Shown here: positions 1 through 50,735 of the stretch, piece after piece | How the letters are laid out: the number at the start of each line of letters is the position of its first letter | Position numbering within the stretch: position 1 is the first letter of the stretch | Assembly (NCBI GenBank): GCA_000002445.1 | Contig: CM000207.1 | Location: forward strand, 2,560,001-2,624,000 | Direction: 5' to 3' | Length of the DNA stretch: 64,000 nucleotides | Origin: Trypanosoma brucei | Lineage: Eukaryota | Notes under the pieces: generated by a model | What the model saw: only the letters and a program-made list of their open reading frames with translations | Databases searched by the model: none | Told to the model about the DNA's origin: nothing | Translations under genes and position numbers: made by a program

Positions 1-3000
1 CTTACCAGTCGAGACCGGTATGGCCGTTATTGGTCGCATTGAACAAGTGCATGCAACAATTCACCTTGCACGTGGAACGGCGCTGACTGTCACGTCGGCA
101 TACATCCCACCAAAACACACCTTCACGGCAACTGACCTAGATACGCTTCTGACAACTGACGGTGCCCAGCTCATCGGTGCAGACGCTAACGCACACGCGT
201 TGGCATGGGATCGCGCGAGCCCACCAAATACCAAGGGTGAAACCCTCACACAGTGGTGCATTGACAACCAGTTTCTGGTATGTAACACTGGTGAGTGCAC
301 CAGGTACACGCGCCACCACGGGGAGTCCACCCCTGATGTGACACTGTCAAGGAATTGCACAGTGTACACGTGGACATCGCTGTATTCTCCCGATAGCGAT
401 CACCATCACATATTTTTCGACGATATCGTTGGAGACGACACAGATGCACTGAGTTGCCCGCGGCTTCGAAAGCCCATGTACGCATGGCTAAAAGCTAACT
501 GGAGGAATTTCCGTCTCAAGGTTCACGAGCTCTGCAGGAAAATTGGTAGAGAGAAGAATGTCAACACTCTGGAACAGAAATTGAGCTCCGCCATCCGCAC
601 TGCGACGAATGTCTCCGTCCCCCGTGGCTGCAGAGTAACGCCACCACATTGGACACCTGCGCTCGCGAAAATCGATGAAGAGATCGCTGGATGCGCACCC
701 TCCCACCGAAGGGAAAAGTTGGTAGCCACGCGTAAGCAGATCCTGGACCGTACCACAAAGAAGAGATGGAGCACGCTATGCTCCAGACTTGCGGTGTCAG
801 ACTGCTGCAGTTGGCACATTGTCAAGAAGGTATATGCGCCACGAACACTAACCACACCGGCTGTACTTGTTGATAACGCGGCCACCACGGACTACCATCA
901 AGCTGAGAGGTTCAGTAAACTGTACTCGTCCCGTGCAAGAAGGCACCCCGACTCACACCCACCGGCACCAATAAAGACGATAGCGAGTGAGTTCAGTCCC
1001 ATCACGATGGCTGAACTACGGAGATCGATCAAACTGCTACAGAGTGGATCCGCAGCAGGACCTGATTGCTTATACAACGAGGCAATACAACATTTCGGTA
1101 GAACAGCGCTGAATGTTGTTCTGAGGCTATTCAATGAGAGCCTACGAATGGGAGTCGTGCCGCCTGCATGGAAGATTGGTGTTATCATCCCCATCCTGAA
1201 GGCCGGAAAAAAGGGCGGAGGACCTCGATTCTTACAGGACTGTAACACTCACGAGCTGTCTCTGCAAAGTCATGGAGCGCATAATTGCCGCGAGGCTTAG
1301 AGACACTGTTGAGTCCCAGCTGATGCTACAGCAATCAGGCTTTCGCCCCGGATGCTCAACGCTCGAACAACTCCTGCACGTCCGCGCTGCCCTCTGCCGC
1401 CCCACGCACCAATATCGTACGGGTGCTGTATTCGTTGACTACGAGAAGGCATTCGATACAGTAGACCACGACAAAATTGCGAGGGAAATGCACAGAATGA
1501 AGGTATCACCCCACATTGTGAAGTGGTGCGTATCATTTCTGAGTAACCGAACTGGCAGAGTGAGATTCAAGGAGAAGCTTTCCAGAAGCAGAACATTTGA
1601 GCGAGGAGTGCCACAAGGAACTGTCCTTGGCCCAATCATGTTCATTATTGTCATGAACTCGTTGAGCCAGCGCCTTGCAGAAGTGCCGTTACTGCAGCAC
1701 GGATTCTTTGCAGACGACCTGACGCTACTTGCGAGGCACACAGAGAGGGATGTCATCAACCACACACTGCAATGCGGCCTAAACGTGGTGTTACAGTGGT
1801 CAAAAGAGTACTTCATGTCTGTCAACGTAGCGAAAACAAAATGCACACTCTTCGGGTGTATAGAGCGCCACCCCCTTACATTACAACTGGACGGCGAAAG
1901 AATAGGAGCTGACAGGACACCGAAGCTTCTAGGAGTAACATTCCAGTGTCTGCAAGGGATGGCAACACATGCGGCCGAAACGAGACGCAAGATGGACTTC
2001 CGACTACTGCAGATAGTGTCCATCTCAGCTTCTACATGGGGGCCAAGACGACAAGTACTGAGAGCTTTTTATCTAGCACTCGTACAGGCACACACAATGT
2101 ATGGCATTGAGGTATGGTACTGGGACGCTTCGGAACGAAGTCGTGACCTCCTTGCAGCAGCACAACACAAAGCCAGTCGCATCATAGCCGGCATACCGCA
2201 TGGGACGCGCAAAGAGGACTCTCTGCTGGAAGCAAACCTCCTGCCACTCAAGACGGCCACTCTTGTGCGCAGCATGAAATTCATACTGATCTGTGAGTCA
2301 CGAGGCGGATGTTTGCGGCGCAGTGCTGAGGAAGTATACCGCAACAAACACCCAGTCAGAGCCCAACATTCCCGCATCATGCGGTCCTATCCACACCTCC
2401 GCATTGAGCCACGCGAGCACCCACTAGAGAAATCGACGCTCCGCCACAGCTGTCGACCGCTATTTCACACGCAGATAAAGCCTGTGTGCGCTGATGACCC
2501 TGACGATGTCAAAAGGGAGGCTTCCGAAAAGTGGATTGAACGGCATTTTTCACGGAGGGGGAAGGAGCTACCGCGGCGAGAGCACTACGAATTGTGGACT
2601 GATGGATCCGTGTCCCTCGGTGAGAAGTCCGGAGCAGCTGCCCTGCTCTATAGAAACAATACGCTTATTTGTGCACCCAAAACCGGAGCAGGGGAACTCT
2701 CATGCAGTTACAGAGCGGAATGCGTATCATTAGAGATAGGACTGCAACGGCTGCTGAAATGGCTTCCGGCATACAGAAGCACACCGAGCAAGTTGTCTAT
2801 CTTCTCTGACTCGCCGTCAATGTTAACAGCACTGCAGACAGGCCCCCTAGCCGTAACGGACCCAATTCTAAGACGACTATGGAGGCTTCTGCTTCAAGTT
2901 CAGAGAAGGAAGTTGCGTATCCGACTGCAATTTGTGTTCGGCCATTGTGGCGTGAAACGGAATGAGGTTTGTGATGAAATGGCCAAAAAGGCCGTAAATT

Positions 3001-4637
3001 TACCACAGTTGCGAGACACATAGATCCCCGACATCATTGCTTATGCGAAGCGAGTGCTTAGGTCGGAAGAAGTCCATGAGAACACTCATAGGTTTGGTAT
3101 CACGGGCAACAACTTTCCAACAAAGCATAAAGAAAAACTGACGAGGGAAGAAGAAACGGCACTGGCACGCTTTCGGGTTGGGTCTTCAAGACACTATGGA
3201 TGGATGTTGCGAAAGATCAACCCGAGTGTGCCTCCACAGTGCCGATGGTGCAACCCGCAAAATGCAGAGATAGGGCCAACAATACAAACAGCCCCAACTG
3301 TTGCGACACGCACTCTTCAGAGAACCTCCGAACCGACAAAATGTACGGAATGTGATGCCACATACCAATGCCGCTCGAGTGCTGTAACGCATATGGTAAA
3401 CAAACACGGCTTTGTGCGAGCTGATGCCCTCCGGAGGATCAAATACGGCGATGCAACACCTGCAGTGGATATCCCCCCGGAGCCCCCTCCAGTGGTGCCT
3501 ATCGTCCCTCTACCATCGAGCACACGAGTCCCGATGAGACCGCAGGTACTTCATTGTACCATCTGTGCCTCCAAATTCGCAGTGCCAGGCCGACTATTAC
3601 ACCACCTTAGAACAATACATGGTATAGGCAGCGGTAGTTGCCGCGTGAAAAGGGGGCGAGAGAACGAGGACTCAGTGCAAGGAGATGGTAGAGCCCCAGC
3701 AGCGCCAGTCTCTCAGGATACACGGAAGCTGCCGTTTCAATGTGACCTGTGCGAGGCGAGCTTCGGTACACGCTCTTCCCTGTCACTACACAAGAAATTC
3801 AAACATAAGAGCATAGTGACGGAGGACGGTACCGTAGTGGTGGTGCAATTCCCTCGTAAGCTTGCCCGTGAGGAAAATGTTGACGTCCCGGGGAAAGGCG
3901 AGGTGCAGTGTGGTGTGTGTCAAAAAGTGCTCAGTTGCAGGGACTCCCTCATCCGACACTGTAAGGCTTTCCACAAAGGTGAGGGAGTCGAGCTTAAATG
4001 CAGCAAAAGCACAAAATTGTGTGCCACTGATTCCCCGCATACAAACACATCCATGTTGGTGTGCCCGACATGCGGAAGGCAGTGTGCTAGCAAAACTGGC
4101 CTCACCCTACATCAAAAGAAGATGCACGGTATGAAGGTAGAGCGCGCTGTTACCATCCAACGCGGCGACTTCGAAGAAACGTCGCTGCACTTGATGAGCT
4201 GCCCCTGTTTGAAGGAGTTACGTGTCAGGTTTGCGGTAGAAGGTGAGTGTGTGCAGGATGTATGTTTTTCTAAAAGGCTGGCGCAGTTTCTCATTGCGGT
4301 TGAACGGAACCTGCCGCAGGTGAAGTCCTCACCTAAGGTAACAGTCATACAACCCACTCTCCCTTCTGCAACTTCCCCCCTTATTGCCGAGTGTGGAGCT
4401 AGCAGGAAAAGCACCGGACGCAGGAATAGTCCATACACCCTCAGAGACAGAGAGGGTATGCAGTCAACAAGCAACAGGAACAGAAAGAGGGGGAGAGAAT
4501 AATAAACGAATAACAAAAATCAAAACAAAAGGATTGCTAATTGACATCTTTTGGAGAGTCCGGGTTGGGTGGCTTCTCGCCCCATCTGCTGTATTCCGTT
4601 CAACTGCGGAGCTACAACAAAAATTATAGAGAGTGTG
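1..4637 (+). mobile_element. ingi non-LTR retrotransposon, partial copy (5' end cut by window start, 3' end truncated about 130 nt after the ORF stop)
   Basis: It is colinear and about 95% identical at the protein level to the two full copies at 28135-33388 and 44051-49308. RT motifs (FRPGCSTLEQLL, VFVDYEKAFDTVDHD, FFADDLTL), RNase H (ELWTDGSVSLGEKSGAAALLY) and four C2H2 fingers are present. The 3' terminal roughly 150 nt seen in the other copies is replaced by 70-bp repeats starting at about 4631. Confidence 0.9.
20..4502 (+). pseudogene. ingi ORF (endonuclease/RT/RNase H/zinc-finger polyprotein), disrupted
   Basis: The ORF is split into 20..1300, 1272..3023 and 3054..4502. An extra G in the run ggaaaaaagggcgg near 1213, compared with ggaaaaaaggcgg in the other copies, causes a frameshift. 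TGG becomes TAG at 3019-3021 (gacacatagatcc versus gacacatggatcc). Confidence 0.85.
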
Positions 4638-4800
4638 TTGTGAGTGTGCATATACGAATATTATAATAAGAGCTGTAATAATAGTAATAATAATAATAAT
4701 GATAATGATAGATAATAATAATAATAAGAAAGTGTTGTGAGTGTGTGTATACGAATATTATAATAAGACAAGTAATAAAAAACATAATAAGAAAAGCAAT
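4631..4800 (+). repeat. VSG 70-bp repeat, about 2 units
   Basis: gagtgtgttgtgagtgtgcatatacgaatattataataagag followed by (TAA)n/(TGA)n runs, twice. Confidence 0.85.
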
Positions 4801-5681
4801 GATAAAAACGAAGGCAGAAGGGGTTTGACAACGGCTATGAACAGGTAACAGAACAAGAAAACCACCGGACGGTAAGTGACAGCGTCCATAGACCAAGTCA
4901 GATCCAGATTACAACCGGCAGTAACAGCAGCCAGCCGACCCGAAGCCACCACCTCAAGCGCTAGAACAGGCAGGACAAGCAATGCCTAAAGCGTCAAACA
5001 TTCGACTCTGACATAAACTCGCAGTGACAAACCAACAGCTGCGGAGCCAAAGGCGGCGGTAGCGCTACCAGATCACAAGAGAACAGCAAAAGGATGAACA
5101 AATAAAGACAAACCGACACCGGCCTACAACCAAAAACCAAAACCGCCACCAAGTACAGGCATCGGTATAAAAACTGTTTTTACACCAGCTTTAATGCAGA
5201 ACGACCGCAGAAAACGGCGCACACGGCCTTAGAAATGAGCACTCTAACCCAGCTTAAACCAATAACGCCACAGCGCCTGCAAGAACAAAAAAAAGGGAAA
5301 ACAGCGGCTTTTAAACTGCTGCTAAAGTCTAATAAATTTAACTAGAAGTTGAAACAGCACACAATGAGTGGCAATATCTGATAACGAAAACGCAGCAAAA
5401 GCAGGCGGCAGCGTCAGCAAAGCACTAAATACAACACTGAAACCGAACGACGCAAAACCAAAGCAGCAAGAGTCACCGCAGCATCAGCAAACGAGACCAA
5501 CAAACTTACGGAAAAGAATCAGGACACAATTGGCCTAAACCCTAAGCCACAGCAACGGCACTTTCTCAGAGATGTGCAAAGAAACCAGATTTTACGCTTT
5601 TACAAAGACGCCACAAACGCCAAATCTCCTAAATCTCCGCAGTCCAAACACCTACGAAACCAAACAGCAAGAGAAAAGCAA

Positions 5682-7050
5682 ATGTGGAGACTAAAAGCGT
5701 TAGCAATGCTAATAGCAACAATACCAAGCTCAGCTGCAGCAGCGAAGCAAGAAGCAAACAGACCCCAGTGCGGCAATCCGTGCGGTTGCATGGTGCGCAT
5801 CGACGTGCTGTTGGAAAGGCTGGAAAAAGCGGCAAGCACAGGGGTAGCGAAAATTTCAGGAAACGCAGAAGCAATGCAGCAGCTAGCACTAGGAGCGGCA
5901 AGCACAGACGACAAGGTAGCACGGCTTCTAGCACCATTGCTAGCCGTAGCAACGCACGTAAACGCAGAAGCGACGGCAAAGCTCTCAGCAGCACCGGACA
6001 CGATCGCAAGGGCAACGGCGCTACTAAATAAAAAGAAAGCAGTGCAAGAAGCTAAAAAACGGCTGTACGGTAGCTATGAGGCGGCAATTTTAACGAGAGC
6101 CAGCCACTTCGGCGACGCCACGTACGCGCCGAAGACGCACAAGCAAGCACCGCGGACAGCGTGCGGAGAATTCCAGGACGATGCCTATTTTTCTCTGGAC
6201 GAGCTTAATTTTGACCATGATGCCGGACTAGGCGACTCAAACCTAGGACTAAACGTCAAACAGGCTTGCTACAAAAGCAACCCGGGCTCACCGTGCGACG
6301 CAAGCGGCAGCACCGACAAACTAAGCACAGCAATAACTATAGCGCCCGCGGCAACGGCCACTGCGTCAGGACCACTTGCAGGCGGCAATGAAAAGATCAC
6401 AACGAAGGCAACAATAACACTGGCCAATGAAACTGACGATGAAAAGACGGTACTCAAAGCGGCGCAGACGGCCGAAAAACACCTAACATCAGTGCCAGAC
6501 CTATCAAAGCTAAGCACGTACACGGACAGCACAGCATTCAAATTACTAGTAAACCGATTAGTGATGGGGACAGCAGCAGACAGCCCAATACAAGGAAAGA
6601 TGGCTGAAGAAACGGCCAACTTTATAACCAAAAATTACGGCAAAGACGACGAAGAGTTTACAAAAAACATATGGGAAAAAATAAAAACAGCCACGACAAT
6701 ATACTACGAAGATAAGGCAAAAAACAAAAAAGATCAAAGACCTAACCGAAACCGAACAAGTCACCGCGCTAACACCTGCATTTTTAAAGGCGGACAAAGA
6801 AACGCCAGCAACGATAAAAGAGACAACACCAGCAGGAACAGGAGAAAAACCAGATACAGAAGACAAAACAGAAAAGAAAAACGTGGATAAAAAGGACGAG
6901 GTTTGCACAGGCGCTGAAGAAGGTAAATGTGACAAGACAAAATGCGATTGGAACGCAGAGAAAAAACAGTGCAAAGTTAAAGAGGGGGCAGTTACTATTT
7001 CAGCTGTAATTAAAGCCCCTCTTTTGCTTGCATTTTTGGTTCTAGCTTAA
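5682..7050 (+). pseudogene. VSG with one frameshift in an A-run near 6725
   Basis: Signal-peptide-like start MWRLKALAMLIATIPSSAAAA. After the frameshift the reading continues as ...CTGAEEGKCDKTKCDWNAEKKQCKVKEGAVTISAVIKAPLLLAFLVLA*, a typical Cys-rich C-terminal domain plus hydrophobic GPI signal. The 3'UTR 16-mer lies downstream. Confidence 0.8.
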
Positions 7051-7109: not shown

Positions 7110-7125
7110 TGATATATTTTAACAC
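7110..7125 (+). promoter_or_regulatory. VSG 3'UTR conserved 16-mer
   Basis: tgatatattttaacac, about 60 nt after the VSG stop. Confidence 0.85.
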
Positions 7126-7304
7126 TATTCGAAAAACAATGCGAAAATTAGTGAAAATTTGGAAATTTTGACTTTTATTTAAATGTATGTGACTGTGGTT
7201 CATGGGTATAAAGTAGTAGTCTAATAGGATATGATAATAGAGTGTCATTCAATTTTGTATTATTATGCTTATCATATGAATATTATTAGTAATTTAGTGT
7301 TTTA

Positions 7305-7535
7305 ATAATGATAATGATAATAATAGAAGAGTGTTGTGAGAGCGTGTACATACGAATATTATATTAAGAGCAGTAATAATAATAATAATAATGATAATAA
7401 TGATAGGAAAGTGTTGTGAGAGTGCGTATATACGAATATAATAATGAGAGCAGTAATGATAATAATAATGATAATGATAGGAGATTGTTGTGAGTGTGTA
7501 TATACTAATATTATAATGAGAACAGCAATAATGCT
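7305..7535 (+). repeat. VSG 70-bp repeat, about 3 units
   Basis: Three copies of gtgttgtgag(a)gygtrtatacgaatattataa(t)gagagcagtaataataataatgataatgatag. Confidence 0.9.
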
Positions 7536-25650: not shown

Positions 25651-27062
25651 ATGCTTAATAAAGGTCGCTACCTCCTTATCTATCTTTTGGCCGCTGTGTC
25701 GTTGGCCAACTCCGCAAACGCAGCAGCAGGAGACGCCATAAAGAAGCAATACTGGACGAGCTTCTGCGATGTCGCAGTTGAAGCTGAGACAATACCGTCT
25801 CAAGCGATAACCAGCCTAGAGGCGGCGGCAACGGAGGGCCTAAACAAGTTCAAATTCCTACTAAAGGCGCAAATATACGCCGAAGGAAACTTGACAAGGC
25901 CGACGGCTCCCGAAGAAAGAATGCTATGGACGTTTGGCGCGCATGAAACAGAAAAGGCGTTCAATTACTATACCAGCGCTGCTCCAGGCCAGATAATAAC
26001 GGCGGTTAGGGATGCAGGACGACTGCAAGGAGCAATAGGTGAATGGATAAACCTGATGGCAGAAGGTTCAGACGGCACAGACGGATGTCTCAGCAACAAC
26101 GACGGTGGTGGCAACCCAATAAGCGGGAGAAACGCGCTGACTGGAGACATGTAAAAATGTAAACTGAAATGGGAACCGGTACACAAAGGACAGGTACAAG
26201 GTACTTTGCTTGGACCAACAGGCCTTACGGGTAGTTTCTCAACGGGCGTAGCCCACGGAAGCTTAGTCAACGGAAACAAAAAATGCGGCATAAATTCGCC
26301 AAACACAGGCTTCCTGTTAAACGACGCGGATACAAGCGGCAGCGGCAACGGCGCAAATGTAGCGGGCCACACTCCAAAGATGGCTGCTGGACTACTAACC
26401 ATAGACAACACAGGCCTAATAATCGAGGTGTTAGCTGACACAGAAACTAAGCAGGCAACACACCCTTACCTGCATTACGCAGTAAAAGCCAAAACGAACG
26501 TTCAGCAGATGTTCAACTCCGATATGCCGCAAACTTTAGAGACAGCAAAGACATCTGAGCAACTAAAGCGGGCAGCAAGAAGGCAACTACTAGGCAAAAA
26601 AGACAGTGAAACTTCCGAAGACAACCAGATACCCGACAAAATCAAAAGTGTATTCACGACCAACGACAAATACCTAGCGATCCTACACAAAAACATAGAC
26701 GCCATGCCTACACCCAAAGAGCTGACAGATGATAAGCAGGAAACCACCCTAGGCGAAATCAACGACGTGGACCTCCTAATTCGTCTGTATTTTTACTATG
26801 TGGATGCCAACAAGAGAAAACTGCAAAACACATTAGACGAGCTACGAAATGTAAATAAAAAGCAAGAACCAAAATCAGCAGAAGACAAGGAAAAAGAGTG
26901 CAATACCAAAGGCAATGATAAGCAAGAAGAGTGTGAAAAACTAGAGAGTCAAGGGTGTATTTTTAACAAGGAGGGCAAGAAGTGGAAAAAGTGCACATTG
27001 AGCGAGGAAGGCAAAAAAGGAAGGAGCTAAACAACAATCAGAAAAAGAAGGAGGGAAAGATG
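25651..27062 (+). pseudogene. VSG with a frameshift near 26160 and a 3' end truncated by the ingi fragment
   Basis: Signal MLNKGRYLLIYLLAAVSLANSANAAAGDAIKK... ORFs 25651..26154 and 26206..27030. The C-terminal domain ...ECNTKGNDKQEECEKLESQGCIFNKEGKKWKKCTLSEEGKKG... ends abruptly at ingi-derived sequence, with no GPI signal or 16-mer. Confidence 0.75.
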
Positions 27063-28134
27063 AGAATTTTAATTTTAATTTTCTTCGTGCCTTCGTGGGA
27101 GTTTCCCCCCACTGGCGCGGCCATCAGCCATCACCGTAGAGCCCTGAGATGCTATCGGTCTGGCGACTGTGGCAGAGTCTCCCTTTTTTTATTCATCCTA
27201 ATACACCCTCTATAATTTTTGTTGTAGCTCCGCAGTTGAACGGAATACAGCAGATGGGGCGAAAAGCCTCCCACTCCGGACTCTCCAAAAGATGTCAATT
27301 AGCAATCCTTTTGTTTTGATTTTTGTTATTCGTTTATTATTCTCTCCCCCTCTTTCTGTTCCTGTTGCTTGTTGACTGCATACCCCCTCTGTCTCTGAGG
27401 GTGTATGGACTATTCCTGCGTCCGGTGCTTTTCCTGCTAGCTCCACACTCGGCAATAAGGGGGGAAGTTGCAGAAAGGAAAGTGGGTTGTATAACTGTTA
27501 CCTTAGGTGAGGACTTCACCTGCAGCCGGCTCCGTTCAACCGCAATGAGAAACTGCGCCAGCCTTTTAGAGAAACATACATCCTGCACACACACACACAC
27601 ACACACCTTCCACCGCAAACCTGACACGTAACTCCTTCAAACTGGGACAGCTCATCAAGTGCAGCGACGTTTCTTCGAAGTCGCCGCGTTGGATGGTAAC
27701 AGCGCGCTCTACCTTCATACCGTGCATCTTCTTTTGATGTAGGGTGAGGCCAGTTTTGCTAGCACACTGCCTTCCGCATGTCGGGCACACCAACATGGAT
27801 GTGTTTGTATGCGGGGAATCAGTGGCACACAATTTTGTGCTTTTGCTGCATTTAAGCTCGACTCCCTCACCTTTGTGGAAAGCCTTACAGTGTCGGATGA
27901 GGGAGTCCCTGCAACTGAGCACTTTTTGACACACACCACACTGCACCTCGCCTTTCCCCGGGACGTCAACATTTCCCCCACGGGCACGCTTACGAGGGAA
28001 TTGCAACACCACTACGGTACCGTCCTCCGTCACTATGCTCTTATGTTTGAATTTCTTGTGTAGTGACAGGGAAGAACGTGTACCGAAGCTCGCCTCGCAC
28101 AGGTCACATTGAAACGGCAGCTTCCGTGTATCCT
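27063..28134 (-). mobile_element. ingi 3' fragment (about 1.07 kb; zinc-finger region to poly(A)-like tail)
   Basis: It is the reverse complement of ingi from ...aggatacacggaagctgccgtttcaatgtgacctg... to the 3' end. A T-rich tail (aattttaattttaatttt) sits at the low-coordinate end. The minus-strand ORF 27566..28189 reads ...RKLPFQCDLCEASFGTRSSLSLHKKFKH... Confidence 0.88.
27586..27608. repeat. (CA/GT)n microsatellite expansion inside the ingi fragment
   Basis: The fragment has cacacacacacacacacac where the full copies have gtgagtgtgtgc. Confidence 0.8.
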
Positions 28135-31100
28135 CCCTGGTGATGCTGGTCACATCAACGTGGTGCCAGGATCCAGTACCCCGTATCATCGGGTGAAGCC
28201 AAGAGCCAGCAGCGTTCCTTTCATGGGGAACACTGCTGTGCTCTGGCTACGGCATCATACAGCACAGGGATCAGCAGCGTCTTGCTGGGACACCGTTTTT
28301 CATTTGTCGGTCCCTGGGCACGTGGCTAGCGTGCCATCAGCAGTATCATCCGCACTAAGATGCTGCTGTCCGGTGATGTGGAAGAGAATCCCGGCCCGTC
28401 GTTGCGCGGGATGCAGTGGAACTGCGCCGGGCTATCTCAAGGAAAGAGATTAGCACTCCACAAAACCCTTGTTGATGAGCGGATCGCCTTTTGTCTGTTG
28501 AGCGAGACAAGGATGACGCCTGGAGAGGCGGCTTTCTTTAGCGTTGCTGGCTACCAACATCACGGAATAGCTCGTAACTGCAAAGGAGGTGGTGTATCAA
28601 TACTAATGAGGGAGGACCTACCAGTCGAGACCGGTATGGCCGTTGTTGGTCGCATTGAACGAGTGCATGCAACAATTCACCCTGCACGTGGAACGGCGCT
28701 GACTGTCACGTCGGCATACATCCCACCAAAACACACCTTCACGGCAACTGACCTAGATACGCTTCTGACAACTGACGGTGCCCAGCTCATCGGTGCAGAC
28801 GCTAACGCACACGCGTTGGCATGGGATCGCGCGAGCCCACCAAATACCAAGGGTGAAACCCTCACACAGTGGTGCATTGACAACCAGTTTCTGGTATGTA
28901 ACACTGGTGAGTGCACCAGGTACACGCGCCACCACGGGGAGTCCACCCCTGATGTGACACTGTCAAGGAATTTCACAGTGTACACGTGGACATCGCTGTA
29001 TTCTCCCGATAGCGATCACCATAACATATTTTTCGACGTTATCGTTGGAGACGACACAGATGCACTGAGTTGCCCGCGGCTTCGAAAGCCCATGTACGCA
29101 TGGCTAAAAGCTAACTGGAGGAATTTCCGTCTCAAGGTTGACGAGCTCTGCAGGAAAATTGGTAGAGAGAAGAATGTCAACACTCTGGAACAGAAATTGA
29201 GCTCCGCCATCCGCACTGCGACGAATGTCTCCGTCCCCCGTGGCTGCAGAGCAACGCCACCACATTGGACACCTGCGCTCGCGAAAATCGATGAAGAGAT
29301 CGCTGGATGCGCACCCTCCCACCGAAGGGAAAAGTTGGTAGCCACGCGTAAGCAGATCCTGGACCGTACCACAAAGAAGAGATGGAGCACGCTATGCTCC
29401 AGACTTGCGGTGTCAGACTGCTGCAGTTGGCACATTGTCAAGAAGGTATATGCGCCACGACCACTAACCACACTGGCTGTACTTGTTGATAACGCGGCCA
29501 TCACGGACTACCATCAAGCTGAGAGGTTCAGTAAACTGTACTCGTCCCGTGCAAGAAGGCACCCCGACTCACACCCACCGGCACCAATAAAGACGATAGC
29601 GAGTGAGTTCAGCCCCATCACGATGGCTGAACTATGGAGATCGATCAAACTGCTTCCGACCGGATCCGCAGCAGGACCTGATTGCTTATACAACGAGGCA
29701 ATACAACATCTCGGTAGAACAGCGCTGAATGTTGTTCTGAGGCTATTCAATGAGAGCCTACGAACGGGAGTCGTGCCGCGTGCATGGAAGACTGGTGTTA
29801 TCATCCCCATCCTGAAGGCCGGAAAAAAGGCGGAGGACCTCGATTCTTACAGGACTGTGACGCTCACGAGCTGTCTCTGCAAAGTCATGGAACGCATAAT
29901 TGCCGCGAGGCTTAGAGACACTGTTGAGTCCCAGCTGACGCCGCAGCAATCAGGCTTTCGCCCCGGATGCTCAACGCTCGAACAACTCCTGCACGTCCGC
30001 GCTGCCCTCTGCCGCCCTACGCACCAATATCGTACGGGTGCTGTATTCGTTGACTACGAGAAGGCATTCGATACAGTAGACCACGACAAAATTGCGAGGG
30101 GAATGCACAGAATGAAGGTATCACCCCACATTGTGAAGTGGTGCGTATCATTTCTGAGTAACCGAACTGGCAGAGTGAGATTCAAGGAGAAGCTTTCCAG
30201 AAGCAGAACATTTGAGCGAGGAGTGCCACAAGGAACTGTCCTTGGCCCAATCATGTTCATTATTGTCATGAACTCGTTGAGCCAACGCCTTGCAGAAGTG
30301 CCGTTACTGCAGCACGGATTCTTTGCAGACGACCTGACGCTACTTGCGAGGCACACAGAGAGGGATGTCATCAACCACGCACTACAATGCGGCCTCAACG
30401 TGGTGTTACAGTGGTCAAAAGAGTACTTCATGTCTGTCAACGTAGCGAAAACGAAGTGCACACTCTTCGGGTGTATAGAGCGCCACCCCCTTACATTGCA
30501 ACTGGACGGCGAAAGAATAGGAGCTGACAGGATACCGAAGCTTCTAGGAGTAACATTCCAGTGTCAGCAGGGGATGGCAACACATGCGGCCGAAACGAGA
30601 CGCAAGATGGACTTCCGACTACTGCAGATAGTGTCCATCTCAGCTTCTACATGGGGGCCAAGACGACAAGTGCTGAGAGCTTTTTATCTAGCACTCGTAC
30701 AGGCACACACCATGTATGGCATTAAGGTATGGTACTGGGACGCTTCGGAACGAAGTCGTGACCTCCTTGCATCAGCACAACACAAAGCCAGTCGCATCAT
30801 AGCCGGCATACCGCATGGGACGCGCAAAGAGGACTCTCTGCTGGAAGCAAACCTCCTGCCACTCAAGACGGCCACTCTTGTGCACAGCATGAAATTCATG
30901 CTGATGTGTGAGTCACGAGGCGGATGCTTGCGGCGCAGTGCTGAAGAAGCATACCACAGCAAACACCCAGTCAGAGCCCAACATTCCCGCATCATGCGGT
31001 CCTATCCACACCTCCGCATTGAGCCACGCGAGCACCCACTAGAGACACCGACGCTCCGCCACAGCTGCCGACCGCTATTTCACACGCAGATAAAGCCTGT

Positions 31101-33388
31101 GTGCGCTGATGACCCTGACGATGTCAAAAGGGAGGCTTCCGAAAAGTGGATTGAACGGCATTTTTCACGGAGGGGGAAGGAGCTACCGCGGCGAGAGCAC
31201 TACGAATTGTGGACTGATGGATCCGTGTCCCTCGGTGAGAAGTCCGGAGCAGCTGCCCTGCTCTATAGAAACAATACGCTTATTTGTGCACCTAAAACCG
31301 GAGCAGGGGAACTCTCATGCAGTTACAGAGCGGAATGCGTAGCATTAGAGATAGAACTGCAACGGCTGCTGAAATGGCTTCCGGCATACAGAAGCACACC
31401 TAGCAGGTTGTCCATCTTCTCTGACTCGCTGTCAATGTTAACAGCACTGCGGACAGGCCCCCTAGCCGTAACGGACCCAATTCTAAGACGACTATGGAGG
31501 CTTCTGCTTCAAGTTCAGAGAAGGAAGATACGTATCCGACTTCAATTTGTGTTTGGCCATTGTGGCGTGAAACGGAATGAAGTTTGTGATGAGATGGCCA
31601 AAAAGGCCGCTGATTTACCACAGTTGCGAGACACATGGATCCCCGACATCATTGCTTATGCGAAGCGAGTGCTTAAGTCGGAAGAAGTCCATGAGAACAC
31701 TCATAGGTTTGGTATCACGGGCAACCACTTTCCAACAAAGCATAAAGAAGAACTGACGAGGGAAGAAGAAACGGCACTGGCACGCTTTCGGGTTGGGTCT
31801 TCAAGGCACTATGGATGGATGTTGCGAAAGATTAACCCGAGTGTGCCTCCACAGTGCCGATGGTGTAACCCGCAACATGCAGCGATAGGACCAACAATAC
31901 AAACAGCCCCAACTGTTGCGACACGCACTCTTCAAAGAACCTCCGAACCGACCAAATGTACGGAATGTGATGCCACATACCAATGCCGCTCGAGTACTGT
32001 AACGCACATGGTAAACAAACATGGCTTTGTGCGAGCTGATGCCCTCCGGAGGATCAAATACGGCGATGCAACACCTGCAGTGGATATCCCCCCGGAGCCC
32101 CCTCCAGTGGTGGCGATCGTTCCTCTACCATCGAGCACACGAGTCCCGATGAGACCGCAGGTACTTCATTGTACCATCTGTGCCTCCAAATTCGCAGTGC
32201 CAGGCCGACTATTACACCACCTTAGAACAATACATGGTATAGGCAGCGGTAGTTGCCGCGTGAAAAGGGGGCGAGAGAACGAGGACTCAGTGCAAGGAGA
32301 TGGTAGAGCCCCAGCAGCGCCAGTCTCTCAGGATACACGGAAGCTGCCGTTTCAATGTGACCTGTGCGAGGCGAGCTTCGGTACACGCTCTTCCCTGTCA
32401 CTACACAAGAAATTCAAACATAAGAGCATAGTGACGGAGGACGGTACCGTAGTGGTGGTGCAATTCCCTCGTAAGCGTGCCCGTGAGGGAAACGTTGACG
32501 CCACTGGGAAAGGAGAGGTGCAGTGTGGTGTGTGTCAAAAAGTGCTCAGTTGCAGGGACTCCCTCATCCGACATTGTAAGGCTTTTCACAAAGGTGAGGG
32601 AGTCGAGCTTAAATGCAGCAAAAGCACAAAATTTTGTGCCACTGATTCCCCGCATACAAACACATCCATGTTGGTGTGCCCGACATGCGGAAGGCAGTGT
32701 GCTAGCAAAACTGGCCTCACCCTACATCAAAATAAGATGCACGGTATGAAGGTAGAGCGCGCTGTTACCAGCCAACGCGGCGACTGCGAAGAAACGTCGC
32801 TGCACTTGATGAGCTGCCCCGGTTTGAAGGAGTTACGTGTCAGGTTTGCGGTAGAAGGTGAGTGTGTGCAGGATGTATGTTTCTCTAAAAGGCTGGCGCA
32901 GTTTCTCATTGCGGTTGAACGGAACCTGCCGCAGGTGAAGTCCTCACCTAAGGTAACAGTCATACAACCCACTCTCCCTTCTGCAACTTCCCCCCTTATT
33001 GCCGAGTGTGGAGCTAGCAGGAAAAGCACCGGACGCAGGAATAGTCCAGACACCCTCAGAGACAGAGAGGGTATGCAGTCAACAAGCAACAGGAACAGAA
33101 AGAGGGGGAGAGAATAATAAACGAATAACAAAAATCAAAACAAAAGGATTGCTAATTGACATCTTTTGGAGAGTCCGGAGTGGGAGGCTTCTCGCCCCAT
33201 CTGCTGTATTCCGTTCAACTGCGGAGCTACAACAAAAATTATAGAGGGTGTATTAGGCCGAAAAAAAAAGGGAGACTCTGCCACAGTCGCCAGACCGATA
33301 GCATCTCAGGGCTCTACGGTGATGGCTGATGGCCGCGCCAGTGGGGGGAAACTCTCACGAAGGCACGAAGAAAATTCAAGAAAAAAAT
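28135..33388 (+). mobile_element. ingi, full length (about 5.25 kb)
   Basis: The 5' end ccctggtgatgctggtcacatcaacgtggtgccagg... is the RIME/ingi 5' terminus. There is a single long ORF. The 3' end is ...cacgaaggcacgaagaaaattcaagaaaaaaa. No TSD is detectable. Confidence 0.9.
28360..33117 (+). CDS. ingi polyprotein ORF, uninterrupted 1585 aa: 2A-like leader, AP-endonuclease, reverse transcriptase, RNase H, four C2H2 zinc fingers
   Basis: MLLSGDVEENPGP (2A-like D-x-E-x-NPGP). Endonuclease-like WNCAGL...LSETRM. RT motifs FRPGCSTLEQLL, FVDYEKAFDTVDHD and FADDLTLLA. RNase H motif WTDGSVSLGEKSGAAA. Fingers HCTICASKF...HHLRTIH, FQCDLCEASF...HKKFKH, VQCGVCQKVL...RHCKAFH and CPTCGRQC...LHQNKMH. Confidence 0.9.
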   Translation: MLLSGDVEENPGPSLRGMQWNCAGLSQGKRLALHKTLVDERIAFCLLSETRMTPGEAAFFSVAGYQHHGIARNCKGGGVSILMREDLPVETGMAVVGRIERVHATIHPARGTALTVTSAYIPPKHTFTATDLDTLLTTDGAQLIGADANAHALAWDRASPPNTKGETLTQWCIDNQFLVCNTGECTRYTRHHGESTPDVTLSRNFTVYTWTSLYSPDSDHHNIFFDVIVGDDTDALSCPRLRKPMYAWLKANWRNFRLKVDELCRKIGREKNVNTLEQKLSSAIRTATNVSVPRGCRATPPHWTPALAKIDEEIAGCAPSHRREKLVATRKQILDRTTKKRWSTLCSRLAVSDCCSWHIVKKVYAPRPLTTLAVLVDNAAITDYHQAERFSKLYSSRARRHPDSHPPAPIKTIASEFSPITMAELWRSIKLLPTGSAAGPDCLYNEAIQHLGRTALNVVLRLFNESLRTGVVPRAWKTGVIIPILKAGKKAEDLDSYRTVTLTSCLCKVMERIIAARLRDTVESQLTPQQSGFRPGCSTLEQLLHVRAALCRPTHQYRTGAVFVDYEKAFDTVDHDKIARGMHRMKVSPHIVKWCVSFLSNRTGRVRFKEKLSRSRTFERGVPQGTVLGPIMFIIVMNSLSQRLAEVPLLQHGFFADDLTLLARHTERDVINHALQCGLNVVLQWSKEYFMSVNVAKTKCTLFGCIERHPLTLQLDGERIGADRIPKLLGVTFQCQQGMATHAAETRRKMDFRLLQIVSISASTWGPRRQVLRAFYLALVQAHTMYGIKVWYWDASERSRDLLASAQHKASRIIAGIPHGTRKEDSLLEANLLPLKTATLVHSMKFMLMCESRGGCLRRSAEEAYHSKHPVRAQHSRIMRSYPHLRIEPREHPLETPTLRHSCRPLFHTQIKPVCADDPDDVKREASEKWIERHFSRRGKELPRREHYELWTDGSVSLGEKSGAAALLYRNNTLICAPKTGAGELSCSYRAECVALEIELQRLLKWLPAYRSTPSRLSIFSDSLSMLTALRTGPLAVTDPILRRLWRLLLQVQRRKIRIRLQFVFGHCGVKRNEVCDEMAKKAADLPQLRDTWIPDIIAYAKRVLKSEEVHENTHRFGITGNHFPTKHKEELTREEETALARFRVGSSRHYGWMLRKINPSVPPQCRWCNPQHAAIGPTIQTAPTVATRTLQRTSEPTKCTECDATYQCRSSTVTHMVNKHGFVRADALRRIKYGDATPAVDIPPEPPPVVAIVPLPSSTRVPMRPQVLHCTICASKFAVPGRLLHHLRTIHGIGSGSCRVKRGRENEDSVQGDGRAPAAPVSQDTRKLPFQCDLCEASFGTRSSLSLHKKFKHKSIVTEDGTVVVVQFPRKRAREGNVDATGKGEVQCGVCQKVLSCRDSLIRHCKAFHKGEGVELKCSKSTKFCATDSPHTNTSMLVCPTCGRQCASKTGLTLHQNKMHGMKVERAVTSQRGDCEETSLHLMSCPGLKELRVRFAVEGECVQDVCFSKRLAQFLIAVERNLPQVKSSPKVTVIQPTLPSATSPLIAECGASRKSTGRRNSPDTLRDREGMQSTSNRNRKRGRE

Positions 33389-34399
33389 TTAGCTGTTGTT
33401 GGTAGTGCCATAACTGTCGGCTCTGCGGTCTGATAATGCTGATTTGCTGCTGAGATTAGACCGCTGATCTGCACTCCTAGAGCTGTCGCCTCCGCTGTTT
33501 TCGCTGGTATTTCGTCTAGTATTTTAGCTGCTTCTTCTAGTTTTGAGGCCCATGGTTTATTTACCCCCACATCTCTCTGGTTGCCGCGTAATATTTCGTG
33601 TACTTTATGCATAAGTTGCTGGTCGCCCCGCTATTTAATGTGGCAGCTTCGGCTCCTAGTAAATGTTCTACTGTCTTTCCCTCCTTTGCTGTTTGCACGC
33701 GGGCTTCTAGGCTTGCTATGACTAACATGATCACTGTCCCTGTGTGTTTGCTGCTTTCGCCTCTGTGGCGCCAGCCTTTTACTTTTGTTTCGGCTGCTAG
33801 CGGCGCGCTTCCCCAACCTACAGAAGTTCCTGTATTTTTGTATTTGTCGCTGTTTCGACCAGCAGAAAGCCAGAAGTGCCAAAGAATGTCGTTCCAAACT
33901 GACATGCTTGCATTTTCCGCGGACTCCGAGGTCCAGGCAGTTGCTTGCTAGAGTGTTTTGGTCGTCTCGGCTTTGAAGTCAGTTGCTCCTTCGCCCTACA
34001 GCGCCTCTGAAATCTTTTCCTTTCGGCCTTGCTTAACCCTGTCGATATTTCTTGTTTGAGCCTGGTGTAGGTGTTGCCAAGTGGTTGCAAGCCGTTTAAC
34101 GTGTCATTTAAATTTTTTTCAGCAGTTATTCTTGCCCAGTTTTCGATTAGTCTCGGATTTTTTTGTAGCGAGGCCTTTCCGTTTACGGGTTTGTTTAGTT
34201 TTGTTTCTGCTCAACCCATTTGTTCCACTTTGTTACCCAGTTTTTTTAGGTTTTCCTCTTTGTGTTTTGTTTTCCCATTTACTGTTTGCCCCTCAGCCTT
34301 CGAATAAGCTTTGTCAGTCCTGGCTGCTGGTTGACATATTCATCTGGTTTAGATTCTCGATGTCAGCGGTGAAGTCGACGACTGCGGTGGGCTGCTCCC

Positions 34400-44038: not shown

Positions 44039-44050
44039 TTTGTTTGAAGC
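44039..44050. repeat. 12-bp target-site duplication, left copy (TTTGTTTGAAGC)
   Basis: It is identical to 49309-49320, immediately after the ingi poly(A). Confidence 0.85.
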
Positions 44051-47000
44051 CCCTGGCGATGCCGGCCACCTCAACGTGGTGCCATGGTCCAGTACCCCGT
44101 ATCATCGGGGGAAGCCAAGAGCCAGCAACGTTCCTCTCATGGGGAACACTGCTGTGCTCCGGCTACGGCATCATACAGCACAGGGATCAGCAGCGTCTTG
44201 CTGGGACACCGTTTTTCATTTGTCGGTCCCTGGGCACGTGCCAGCGTGCCATCAGCAGTATCATCCGCACTAAGATGCTGCTGTCCGGTGATGTGGAAGA
44301 GAATCCCGGCCCGTCGTTGCGCGGGATGCAGTGGAACTGCGCCGGGCTATCTCAAGGAAAGAGATTAGCACTCCACAAAACCCTTGTTGATGAGCGGATC
44401 GCCTTTTGTCTGTTGAGCGAGACAAGGATGACGCCTGGAGAGGCGGCTTGCTTTAGCGTTGCTGGCTACCAACATCACGGAATAGCTCGTAACTGCAAAG
44501 GAGGTGGTGTATCAATACTAGTGAGGGAGGACCTACCAGTCGAGACCGGTATGGCCGTTATTGGTCGCATTGAACAAGTGCATGCAACAATTCACCTTGC
44601 ACGTGGAACGGCGCTGACTGTCACGTCGGCATACATCCCACCAAAACACACCTTCACGGCAACTGACCTAGATACGCTTCTGACGACTGACGGTGCCCAG
44701 CTCATCGGTGCAGACGCTAACGCACACGCGTTGGCATGGGATCGCGCGAGCCCACCAAATACCAAGGGTGAAACCCTCACACAGTGGTGCATTGACAACC
44801 AGTTTCTGGTATGTAACACTGGTGGGTGCACCAGGTACGCGCGCCACCACGGGGAGTCCACCCCTGATGTGACGCTGTCAAGGAATTGCACAGTGTACAC
44901 GTGGACATCGCTGTATTCTCCCGATAGCGATCACCATAACATATTTTTCGACGTTATCGTTGGAGACGACACAGATGCACTGAGTTGCACGCGGCCTCGA
45001 ATGCCCATGTACGCATGGCTAAAAGCTAACTGGAGGAATTTCCGTCTCAAGGTTGACGAGCTCTGCAGGAAAATTGGTAGAGAGAAGAACGTCAACACCC
45101 TGGAACAGAAATTGAGCTCCGCCATCCGCATTGCGACGAAGGTCTCCGTCCCCCGTGGCTGCAGAGCAACGCCACCACATTGGACACCTGAGCTCGCGAA
45201 ACTCGATGAAGAGATCGCTGGATGCGGACCCTCCCACCGAAGGGAAAAGTTGGTAGCCACGCGTAAGCAGATCCTGGACCGTACCACAAAGAAGAGATGG
45301 AGCACGCTATGCTCCAGACTTGCGGTGTCAGACCGCTGCAGTTGGCACATGGTCAAGAAGGTATATGCGCCACGACCACTAACAACACCGGCTGTACTTG
45401 TAGATAACGCGGCCATCACGGACTACCGTCAAGCTGAGAGGTTCAGTAAACTGTACTCGTCCCGTGCAAGAAGGCACCCCGACTCACACCCACCGGCACC
45501 AATAAAGACGATAGCGAGTGAGTTCAGTCCCATCACGATGGCTGAACTACGGAGATCGATCAAACTGCTACCGAGTGGATCCGCAGCCGGACCTGATTGC
45601 TTATACAACGAGGCACTGCAACATCTCGGCAGAACAGCGCTGAATGTTGTTCTGAGGCTATTCAATGAGAGCCTACGAACGGGAGTCGTGCCGCCTGCAT
45701 GGAAGACTGGTGTTATCATCCCCATCCTGAAGGCCGGAAAAAAGGCGGAGGACCTCGATTCTTACAGGACTGTGACGCTCACGAGCTGTCTCTGCAAAGT
45801 CATGGAACGCATAATTGCCGCGAGGCTTAGAGACACTGTTGAGTCCCAGCTGACGCCGCAGCAATCAGGCTTTCGCCCCGGATGCTCAACGCTCGAACAA
45901 CTCCTGCACGTCCGCGCTGCCCTCTGCCGTCCCACGCACCAATCTCGTACGGGTGCTGTATTCGTTGACTACGAGAAGGCATTTGATACAGTAGACCACG
46001 ACAAAATTGCGAGGGAAATGCACAGAATGAAGGTATCACCCTACATTGTGAAGTGGTGCGTATCATTTCTGAGTAACCGAACTGGCAGAGTGAGATTCAA
46101 GGAGAAGCTTTCCAGAAGCAGAACATTTGAGCGAGGAGTGCCACAAGGAACTGTCCTTGGCCCAATCATGTTCATTATTGTCATGAACTCGTTGAGCCAA
46201 CGCCTTGCAGAAGTGCCGTTACTGCAGCACGGATTCTTTGCAGACGACCTAACGCTACTTGCGAGGCACACAGAGAGGGATGTCATCAACCACACACTAC
46301 AATGCGGTCTAAACGTGGTGTTACAGTGGTCAAAAGAGTACTTCATGTCTGTCAACGTAGCGAAAACAAAGTGCACACTCTTCGGGTGTATAGAGCGCCA
46401 CCCCCTTACATTGCAACTGGACGGCGAAAGAATAGGAGCTGACAGGATACCGAAGCTTCTAGGAGTAACATTCCAGTGTCAGCAGGGGATGGCAACACAT
46501 GCGGCCGAAACGAGACGCAAGATGGACTTCCGACTACTGCAGATAGTGTCCATCTCAGCTTCTACATGGGGGCCAAGACGACAAGTACTGAGAGCTTTTT
46601 ATCTAGCACTCGTACAGGCACACACCATGTATGGCATTGAGGTATGGTACTGGGACGCTTCGGAACGGAGTCGCGACCTCCTCTCAGCAGCACAACACAA
46701 AGCCAGTCGCATCATAGCCGGCATACCGCATGGGACGCGCAAAGAGGACTCTCTGCTGGAAGCAAACCTCCTGCCACTCAAGACGACCACTCTTGTGCGC
46801 AGCATGAAATTCATGCTGATGTGTGAGTCACGAGGCGGATGTTTGCGGCGCAGTGCTGAAGAAGTATACCACAGCAAACACCCAGTCAGAGCCCAACATT
46901 CCCGCATCATGCGGTCCTACCCCCACCTCCGCATTGAGCCACGCGAGCACCCACTAGAGACATCGACGCTCCGCCACAGCTGCCGACCGATATTTCACAC

Positions 47001-49308: not shown

Positions 49309-49320
49309 TTTGTTTGAAGC
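49309..49320. repeat. 12-bp target-site duplication, right copy (TTTGTTTGAAGC)
   Basis: Matches 44039-44050. Confidence 0.85.
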
Positions 49321-50654: not shown

Positions 50655-50735
50655 TCATTACTATTACTGCTCTTATTATAATATTAGTATATATACACTC
50701 ACAACACTCTCCTATTATTATTATTTAATAAAGAA
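50655..50735 (-). repeat. VSG 70-bp repeat (minus orientation), about 1 unit
   Basis: Reverse complement of ...ctcttattataatattagtatatatacactcacaacactctc... The adjacent flank 50570-50595 (ctttctcaccctcacatcaattcac) is the reverse complement of the flank next to the repeat at 12470-12500. Confidence 0.8.

What the first reader, a model, noticed from the sequence alone, without database searches (positions are those of the whole stretch)
4600..4660. ingi 3' truncation joins 70-bp repeats at shared GAGAGTGTGT microhomology
The full copies read ...acaacaaaaattatagagagtgtgtgtgttagg... near their 3' ends. In the partial copy the sequence reads ...aattatagagagtgtgttgtgagtgtgcatatacgaatattataataagag, which is the 70-bp repeat. 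The switch happens within a GAGAGTGTGT stretch shared by the ingi 3' region and the repeat core. This suggests microhomology-mediated recombination removed the last roughly 150 nt of ingi and fused it to a VSG cassette.
Basis: seen in the sequence. Interest (0 to 1): 0.5.

Follow-up and report, generated by a model that had tools for sequence, protein, structure and literature searches.

The report
Truncated ingi joined to 70-bp repeat
A trypanosome retrotransposon copy has lost its last 140 bases and is joined, at a short GT-rich stretch resembling both partners, to the repeat in front of a surface-antigen pseudogene; this looks like an ordinary scar of the microhomology-based DNA repair already known in this parasite.

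Summary
The window is a Trypanosoma brucei-type VSG array with four ingi copies. Copy A (window 1-4638) matches full copies up to ...ATTATAGAGAGTGTGT (4638). It then runs into a 70-bp repeat core (GTGTTGTGAGTGTGCATATACGAATATTATAATAAGAG), a second repeat unit, a frameshifted VSG and the VSG 3'-UTR 16-mer. Compared with copy C, which has a perfect 12-bp target-site duplication, A lacks the last 140 nt and the poly(A) tail. The junction lies at the single best ingi/70-bp-repeat similarity in the 5.26-kb element.

The microhomology length is less certain than claimed. GAGAGTGTGT occurs in none of the other 70-bp units in the window, which read GAGAGTGTTGTG. The overlap is 4 nt (GTGT; P about 0.004) if the parent repeat was the majority type. 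It is 10 nt if the parent was the (GT)3 variant published for Lister 427 BES4.

The best explanation is microhomology-mediated joining, which is well documented in T. brucei. A local deletion is most likely, and a one-sided MMEJ gene conversion is possible. It is one more example of a known process and of low to moderate interest.

The parts
1..4638 (+). ingi copy A. It is cut by the window start at ingi position ~484 and is 3'-truncated at ingi position 5118 of 5258. Its ORF is broken into three pieces (20-1300, 1272-3023, 3054-4502).
   Evidence: Self-BLAST; ORF list; zinc-finger hits in the last ORF piece.
4629..4638 (+). Junction microhomology. GAGAGTGTGT is the maximal ambiguous stretch (10 nt) if the parental repeat was the (GT)3 variant. 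The minimal overlap is GTGT at 4635-4638 (4 nt) if it was the majority type. The imperfect similarity extends back to about 4616-4622.
   Evidence: BLAST extensions of repeat units into 4616-4634; variant repeats in PMC4858185 S1 dataset.
4635..4727 (+). 70-bp repeat unit 1, lacking the usual upstream (TAA)n...ATAGGAGA part. It has the core GTGTTGTGAGTGTG (4635-4648), CATATACGAATATTATAATAAGAGCTGTAATAATA, then a TAA-rich run (4676-4727).
4728..4778 (+). 70-bp repeat unit 2 (GAAAGTGTTGTGAGTGTGTGTATACGAATATTATAATAAGAC).
5682..7050 (+). VSG pseudogene. It has a signal-peptide-like start (MWRLKALAMLIATIPSSAAAA...). A frameshift near 6880-6890 puts the Cys-rich C-terminal part and the hydrophobic tail in another frame (6883-7050).
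   Evidence: translations; weak match to VSG MITat 1.13 6z8g, E = 5.8e-4; C-terminal similarity to VSGs in the window; no Pfam hit.
7110..7125 (+). Conserved VSG 3'-UTR 16-mer TGATATATTTTAACAC, marking the 3' end of the cassette.
   Evidence: 12 matches at up to 2 mismatches against 0.05 expected, nearly all just 3' of VSG-type ORFs.
7303..7532 (+). Three 70-bp repeat units of the next cassette, used as comparison units.
44051..49308 (+). Reference full-length ingi copy C with a 1671-aa ORF (endonuclease, RT, RNase H, zinc finger). It is flanked by a perfect 12-bp target-site duplication TTTGTTTGAAGC (44039-44050 and 49309-49320). The site homologous to the junction is 49159-49168. The segment missing from copy A is 49169-49308.
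28135..33390 (+). Full-length ingi copy B. Its 3' region reads ATAGAGGGTGTATTAGG, with no repeat-core sequence.
27077..28134 (-). 5'-truncated ingi copy B' (3' terminal 1.06 kb). Its 3' region reads ATAGAGGGTGTATTAGG.
4243..4255 (+). Second GT patch inside ingi (GTGAGTGTGTGCA). It is a 13-nt exact match to some published 70-bp cores but was not used for this junction.

Best explanation
A once-complete ingi retrotransposon lay upstream of a VSG cassette in a silent subtelomeric array. A DNA double-strand break occurred 3' of the ingi GT patch, plausibly in or near the fragile TAA-rich part of the 70-bp repeat. The ends were resected. The GT-rich stretch about 140 nt from the ingi 3' end (AAAAATTATAGAGAGTGTGT...) annealed to the similar start of the 70-bp repeat core (AATAATAATAGGAGAGTGT(GT)TGTGAG). 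The flaps were trimmed and the ends ligated. This is microhomology-mediated end joining (micro-SSA), the only end-joining route documented in T. brucei.

The product keeps one copy of the shared stretch. It lost the ingi tail, its poly(A), the downstream target-site duplication, any spacer and the 5' part of the repeat.

The most likely form is a local deletion of a few hundred bases (about 0.45). The alternative within the same mechanism is a one-sided MMEJ gene conversion, which copies a 70-bp-repeat-plus-VSG cassette from elsewhere and resolves its upstream end in the ingi GT patch (about 0.25).

Shown: the chimeric sequence, the missing 140 nt, the 4-10 nt overlap, and its position at the best ingi/repeat similarity. 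Inferred: the break, its position, the repair pathway, and deletion versus conversion.
For: - Copy A is colinear with copies B and C up to 4638 and is a 70-bp repeat from 4635, with no filler bases.
- Copy C shows what an intact insertion looks like: poly(A) plus a perfect 12-bp TSD. Copy A's 3' end is therefore secondary damage.
- P(exact microhomology >= 4 nt) = 0.0036 for random joins. The 10-nt overlap with the (GT)3 variant is the largest possible anywhere.
- The junction site is the top-scoring local alignment between ingi and each of four repeat variants, 14-17 against 10-13 for the next sites. That is about 25 nt out of 5258.
- The imperfect similarity spans about 20-24 nt. Published T. 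brucei MMEJ junctions have 11-13 bp with 1-2 mismatches and loss of 72-278 bp (PMC2377438). They also show 5-20 bp imperfect microhomology, mean total deletion of 284 bp, no NHEJ, and one-sided MMEJ gene conversion (PMC3045614).
- A longer exact match to some repeat cores (13 nt, 4243-4255) lies 385 nt further 5' and was not used. This fits the published preference for the microhomology nearest the break when the break lies 3' of ingi.
- RPA enrichment on 70-bp repeats is consistent with frequent single-stranded DNA or damage there (PMC12975129).
Against: - Neither parental sequence is available. The parental repeat type, and so the overlap of 4 or 10 nt, is unknown.
- Four nt is below the 5-20 bp range reported for T. 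brucei MMEJ.
- The ingi/repeat similarity is only marginally above chance (shuffle p = 0.007-0.11). It is a low-complexity coincidence, so one junction there is suggestive rather than proof.
- The 5' end and flank of copy A are outside the window, so an insertion-type origin cannot be excluded.
- No other T. brucei sequence could be retrieved to check that the junction exists in independent assemblies.
Confidence: 0.7

Rival explanations
1. Non-canonical (endonuclease-independent or internally primed) ingi retrotransposition into a broken 70-bp repeat. The 3' end of a broken or nicked repeat strand (…CACACTCACAACAC) annealed to the internal GU-rich patch of ingi RNA instead of the poly(A) tail and primed reverse transcription there. 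This would give an insertion with no 3' end, no poly(A), and microhomology at the 3' junction.
For: - Copy A has 3' truncation, no poly(A) and microhomology at the 3' junction.
- From general knowledge of L1 biology (not tested here), these are the hallmarks of endonuclease-independent L1 insertions in NHEJ-deficient mammalian cells.
- T. brucei shows no NHEJ (PMC3045614).
- 70-bp repeats are break-prone and RPA-bound.
- ingi does land next to 70-bp repeats: copy C in this window and BES2 (PMC2567434).
Against: - It is less parsimonious than a deletion. Such events have not been described for ingi in any paper found.
- The only insertion that can be checked at both ends here is canonical: copy C has poly(A) and a 12-bp TSD.
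- The decisive 5' junction is outside the window.
Confidence: 0.08
2. Assembly artefact. Two high-copy repeats (ingi and 70-bp repeats) were joined wrongly by the assembler across the shared GT-rich low-complexity stretch.
For: - Both flanks are multi-copy repeats and the join is in low-complexity sequence.
- No independent sequence of the locus could be obtained.
Against: - The shared exact stretch is only 4-10 nt, too short to mislead long-read or clone-based assembly.
- Copy A carries its own substitutions right up to the junction, for example GGGTTGGGTGGCTTC at 4562-4576 against the other copies.
- The downstream cassette is unique in the window.
Confidence: 0.07
3. The breakpoint falls in the GT patch by coincidence and homology played no part, for example blunt joining or an unrelated deletion.
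For: - With a majority-type parental repeat the exact overlap is only 4 nt.
- The ingi/repeat similarity is barely above chance.
Against: - P(>= 4 nt) = 0.0036 for random joins.
- The breakpoint also coincides with the single best similarity in 5.26 kb.
- Homology-independent end joining has not been detected in T. brucei (PMC2377438, PMC3045614).
Confidence: 0.05

Closest known systems
MMEJ-based deletions and one-sided MMEJ gene conversions in T. brucei (Glover, McCulloch & Horn 2008, PMC2377438; Glover, Jun & Horn 2011, PMC3045614)
   Same: - Short imperfect direct similarity is present in both partners and one copy is kept in the product.
- There are no filler bases.
- The loss is on the order of hundreds of bases.
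- The GT/GC-containing patch nearest the presumed break was used.
- These papers already proposed 70-bp repeats as rich MMEJ substrates.
   Different: - Those junctions were induced by I-SceI in reporter cassettes with known parents. This one is a natural, undated scar in the silent VSG archive whose parents are inferred from paralogues.
- The exact overlap may be only 4 nt, below the reported 5-20 bp.
70-bp repeat as the upstream boundary of VSG gene conversion (Liu 1983, Campbell 1984 and Aline 1985 as cited in PMC4858185; Hovel-Miner 2016)
   Same: The recombination endpoint lies in the conserved GT-rich core of a 70-bp repeat about 1 kb upstream of a VSG, where VSG cassettes normally begin.
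   Different: The partner sequence is the 3' untranslated region of a retrotransposon that merely resembles a 70-bp repeat over about 20 nt, not another 70-bp repeat.
ingi elements next to 70-bp repeats (BES2 / VO2 expression site, 'ingi element 3' of 70-bp repeat', Hertz-Fowler 2008, PMC2567434)
   Same: ingi and 70-bp repeats are close neighbours in VSG loci. Copy C in this window is also inserted between a 70-bp repeat and its VSG.
   Different: - As far as described, those are ordinary insertions downstream of the repeats.
- Here the ingi is upstream, has lost its 3' end, and is fused base-to-base with the repeat core.
Endonuclease-independent, 3'-truncated LINE-1 insertions at DNA breaks in NHEJ-deficient cells (recalled from the L1 literature; not retrieved here)
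   Same: 3' truncation, no poly(A), junction microhomology, and a host lacking NHEJ.
   Different: No evidence for this pathway in trypanosomes was found, and the 5' junction needed to recognise it is outside the window.

Membership tests
ingi non-LTR retrotransposon (copy A) | About 5.2-kb element encoding endonuclease, reverse transcriptase, RNase H and C2H2 zinc finger | tested here: met
   Copy A is 96.9-97.6% identical over 4.6 kb to copies C and B. Copy C has RVT_1, Exo_endo_phos, RNase_H and zf-C2H2 domains. Copy A's ORF is broken into three pieces.
ingi non-LTR retrotransposon (copy A) | 3' poly(A) tail and 12-bp target-site duplication | tested here: not met
   Copy C has both. Copy A ends at ingi position 5118 with no poly(A). 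Its 5' flank is outside the window, so it counts as a truncated member and not a complete insertion.
70-bp repeat of VSG loci | GT-rich core (GAGAGTGTTGTGAGTGTG), then ATATACGAATATTATAATAAGAGCAGTAATAATA and a (TAA)n run, matching the published BES consensus | tested here: met
   4635-4727 and 4728-4778 match the other units in the window. They also match the Lister 427 BES1/BES4 repeats of PMC4858185 S1. Unit 1 lacks the part 5' of the core.
70-bp repeat of VSG loci | Position roughly 1-1.5 kb upstream of a VSG gene | tested here: met
   The repeats end at about 4778 and the VSG start codon is at 5682. The 16-mer is at 7110.
VSG cassette | VSG coding region with signal peptide, N-terminal domain, Cys-rich C-terminal domain, GPI-signal tail and 3'-UTR 16-mer | tested here: inconclusive
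   A signal-like N-terminus, Cys-rich C-terminus, hydrophobic tail and an exact 16-mer are present. The N-domain is missed by both Pfam VSG models. It has only a weak match to VSG13 (E = 5.8e-4). A frameshift makes it a pseudogene.
T. brucei MMEJ junction | 5-20 bp, often imperfect, microhomology present in both partners, with one copy kept and no inserted bases | tested here: inconclusive
   No filler bases are present. The imperfect similarity spans about 20-24 nt. The exact overlap is 10 nt with the (GT)3 variant repeat and 4 nt with the majority repeat. The parents are inferred from paralogues and were not observed.
T. brucei MMEJ junction | Loss of the sequence originally lying between the two microhomologies | not testable with these tools
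   The pre-rearrangement locus is not available. Only the 140-nt loss on the ingi side is measurable.
T. brucei MMEJ junction | RAD51-independence (deletion form) or RAD51-dependence (one-sided conversion form) | not testable with these tools
   This needs a genetic experiment (PMC3045614).
Endonuclease-independent LINE insertion | 3' truncation without poly(A), with microhomology at the junction | tested here: met
Endonuclease-independent LINE insertion | No target-site duplication, with target sequence continuous across the element (here, the left half of the 70-bp repeat at the 5' flank) | not testable with these tools
   The window starts about 483 nt inside copy A.

The most novel reading that the evidence does not exclude
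The GT patch about 140 nt from the ingi/RIME 3' end may act as a cryptic 70-bp-repeat mimic that is used recurrently. Either dispersed ingi/RIME copies serve as surrogate upstream boundaries for moving VSG cassettes, or ingi cDNA is captured at broken 70-bp repeats by microhomology priming in this NHEJ-less organism. In both cases retrotransposons would take a direct mechanical part in remodelling the VSG archive.
Probability: 0.08. Interest if true: 0.6.

Novelty: new member of a known kind. Interest (0 to 1): 0.22.

Why it matters
Microhomology-mediated joining in T. brucei has mostly been characterised at nuclease-induced breaks in reporter genes. Natural footprints in the silent VSG archive show that the same pathway shapes the antigen repertoire. 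This junction also shows that a sequence outside the 70-bp repeat family can pair with the repeat core.

It remains a single junction. It confirms expectations, disables an already degenerate ingi copy, and lies next to a VSG pseudogene. Its value is as one data point for a genome-wide survey and not as a discovery in itself.

Tried and rejected
1. Retrieving the same or related loci from other T. brucei assemblies:
   - The exact-protein look-ups of the VSG ORF, from both possible starts, found nothing.
   - A homology search with the ingi C-terminal ORF returned only distant T. theileri and T. grayi proteins.
   - A VSG homology search returned one 100%-identical metaclust fragment with no contig.
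   - A metagenome scan for the conserved ingi 3' motif found nothing.
2. A full-text search for the ingi 3' sequence strings found no paper.
3. Chimeric retrocopy (RT template switch from a VSG-cassette transcript to ingi RNA). Rejected because there is no poly(A) after the VSG 3' UTR. The cassette runs straight into the next 70-bp repeats, as elsewhere in the array.
4. Common ancestry of the ingi 3' region and the 70-bp repeat. Rejected because the similarity is short and only marginally above shuffled controls.
5. A donor copy of the cassette within the window. None was found; only the repeat units and short 3'-UTR motifs match elsewhere.
6. It is not met in any of the three other copies.

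Full report
**What the window is**

- Pfam identifies A-type and B-type VSG domains in many ORFs.
- The VSG 3'-UTR 16-mer TGATATATTTTAACAC occurs 12 times at up to 2 mismatches, against 0.05 expected.
- The 70-bp repeat core GTGTTGTGAGTGTG occurs 12 times at up to 2 mismatches, against 0.55 expected.
- This is a silent Trypanosoma brucei-type VSG array. VSGs are on the + strand up to about 27 kb and on the - strand from about 33.4 kb.

**The four ingi copies (self-BLAST)**

| Copy | Window position | Strand | State |
|---|---|---|---|
| A | 1-4638 | + | cut by the window start about 483 nt into the element; 3'-truncated |
| B' | 27077-28134 | - | 5'-truncated; 3' terminal 1.06 kb |
| B | 28135-33390 | + | full length |
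| C | 44051-49308 | + | full length |

Copy C has a 1671-aa ORF with endonuclease, RT, RNase H and zinc-finger domains. It has a poly(A) tail and a perfect 12-bp target-site duplication, TTTGTTTGAAGC, at 44039-44050 and 49309-49320. It shows what an intact insertion looks like.

**Checking the observation**

- Copy A is colinear with C (96.9%) and B (97.6%) from ingi position 484 to 5118 of 5258.
- Its last ingi bases are ...CAACAAAAATTATAGAGAGTGTGT, ending at 4638.
- Copy C continues GTGTTAGGATGAATGAAAAAGGGAGAC... for another 140 nt including the A-tail.
- Copy A instead continues TGTGAGTGTGCATATACGAATATTATAATAAGAGCTGTAATAATA, a TAA-rich run, and then a second unit.
- This matches the other 70-bp units in the window. 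It also matches the published Lister 427 BES1 and BES4 repeats (PMC4858185 S1 dataset).
- Downstream lie:
  - a VSG-like ORF starting at 5682, with a signal-peptide-like N-terminus;
  - a frameshift near 6880-6890, after which the Cys-rich C-terminus and hydrophobic tail read in another frame, to 7050;
  - an exact 16-mer at 7110;
  - the next cassette's repeats at 7303-7532.
- The N-domain is missed by Pfam and matches VSG13 only weakly. The overall layout is nevertheless that of a VSG pseudogene cassette.
Only one of the two full copies (C) reads GAGAGTGTGTGTGTTAGG, while B and B' read GAGGGTGTATTAGG. The missing segment is 140 nt.

**How much microhomology**

No ingi copy contains GTGTTGTGAGTGTG at this site.
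- GAGAGTGTGT occurs only twice in the window, at the junction and in copy C.
- The other 70-bp units here read (G/A)AGAGTGTTGTGAG, with one GT fewer.
- With such a majority-type parent, ingi and repeat share GAGAGTGT, but a crossover in that register would give GAGAGTGTTGTG, which is not the observed GAGAGTGTGTTGTG.
- The register that reproduces the product without an indel shares only GTGT, 4635-4638.
- A (GT)3 variant, ATAGGAGAGTGTGTTGTGAGTGTG(TG)CATATACG, does exist. The string GTGTGTTGTGAG occurs 10 times, against 125 for the majority form, in the Hovel-Miner S1 dataset. In the part of that file that was read, these lie in a run within BES4. The authors also used this form for their synthetic 77-bp monomer.
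- The exact microhomology is therefore 4-10 nt. It sits within an imperfect similarity of about 20-24 nt: AAAAATTATA-GAGAGTGTGT against AATAATAATAGGAGAGTGT(GT).

**Is it more than chance**

- Over all distinct ingi x repeat joins, P(>= 4 nt) = 0.0036 and P(>= 8 nt) is about 3e-5.
- For four repeat variants, the top local alignment anywhere in the 5.26-kb element is exactly this site. It scores 14-17, against 10-13 for the runners-up.
- The similarity itself is only marginally above shuffled controls (p = 0.007-0.11). It is best read as a low-complexity coincidence that repair exploited, not as shared ancestry.

**Mechanism**

- T. brucei shows no NHEJ. Its end joining uses imperfect microhomologies.
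  - One study found 11-13 bp with 1-2 mismatches and loss of 72-278 bp (PMC2377438).
  - Another found 5-20 bp, a mean total deletion of 284 bp, and a preference for microhomology close to the break. It also described one-sided MMEJ gene conversions, with HR at one end and MMEJ at the other (PMC3045614).
  - Those authors already pointed to the 70-bp repeats as rich MMEJ substrates.
- RPA is enriched on 70-bp repeats (PMC12975129), which is consistent with frequent single-stranded DNA there.
- The simplest history:
  1. A canonical ingi insertion lay a short distance upstream of a 70-bp repeat.
  2. A break occurred 3' of the ingi GT patch, plausibly in the TAA tract.
  3. Resection and annealing of the two GT-rich stretches followed.
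  4. The ingi tail, spacer and the 5' part of the repeat were lost.
- ingi carries a second patch, GTGAGTGTGTGCA at 4243-4255. It matches some repeat cores exactly over 13 nt but was not used. This fits use of the microhomology nearest a break lying 3' of the element.
- Deletion versus one-sided gene conversion cannot be separated with the window alone. No donor copy is present in the window.

**Rivals**

- Insertion of ingi into a broken repeat by internal priming would give the same 3' junction. The decisive 5' flank is outside the window.
- Misassembly is unlikely given the short overlap and the copy-specific substitutions up to the junction. It cannot be excluded without reads.
- A homology-independent coincidence is disfavoured by the statistics and by the absence of NHEJ.
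- A chimeric retrocopy is rejected because no poly(A) follows the VSG 3' UTR.

**Comparison and novelty**

- The literature searches found ingi next to 70-bp repeats only as an 'ingi element 3' of 70-bp repeat' in BES2 (PMC2567434).
- They found no description of an ingi/70-bp-repeat fusion. The searched library is limited to open-access papers.
- The mechanism class, the elements and their co-location are all known. This is a new instance of a known kind of rearrangement, of low to moderate interest.

**Limits**

No other T. brucei genomic sequence could be reached with the tools. The parental sequences, the age of the event, its presence in other strains and its recurrence genome-wide remain untested.

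Noticed in passing
window 27077-28134 (-) and 28135-33390 (+): Two ingi copies lie head-to-head: a 5'-truncated 1.06-kb 3' fragment (B') abuts the exact 5' end of full-length copy B. There is no target-site duplication around either copy or around the pair, and no microhomology at 28134/28135. The pair sits where the VSG array switches from + to - strand. On one side, a truncated A-type VSG fragment (26206-27030, +) ends just short of B's... B' poly(A) end. On the other side are minus-strand ORFs that look VSG-like by eye. This may be an inversion or rearrangement breakpoint.
   Followed up: partly
window 4243-4255, 32858-32870, 48773-48785: ingi contains a second GT patch, GTGAGTGTGTGCA. It matches some published 70-bp repeat cores (TGTGAGTGTGTGCATATACG) exactly over 13 nt, which is longer than the microhomology used at the junction. 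It could be another latent recombination site.
   Followed up: partly
window 44039-49320 with 50662-50725 (-) and 43852 (-): Full-length ingi copy C, with a perfect 12-bp TSD TTTGTTTGAAGC, is inserted between a 70-bp repeat and the start codon of its minus-strand VSG-like ORF (43181-43852). It splits the cassette. The placement resembles the 'ingi 3' of 70-bp repeat' reported for BES2.
   Followed up: partly
window 37607-38323 (-): An ORF with a reverse-transcriptase domain is 41% identical at protein level to the ingi RT but was not detected by BLASTN with ingi. It is probably a degenerate ingi-related element (DIRE) embedded in the array.
   Followed up: partly
window 5682-6890 (+): The VSG-like N-terminal domain next to the junction is not recognised by either Pfam VSG model, nor by BLASTP against the other VSGs in the window. 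It has only a weak match to VSG MITat 1.13 (6z8g). It is a divergent VSG N-domain type, and the gene is frameshifted before its C-terminal domain.
   Followed up: partly
window 49159-49172, 33243-33252, 27198-27207 (-): The (GT)n tract in the ingi 3' region is polymorphic between copies: GAGAGTGTGTGTGTT in C and GAGGGTGTATT in B and B'. The ancestral tract length of copy A is therefore unknown, which adds to the uncertainty about the crossover register.
   Followed up: yes
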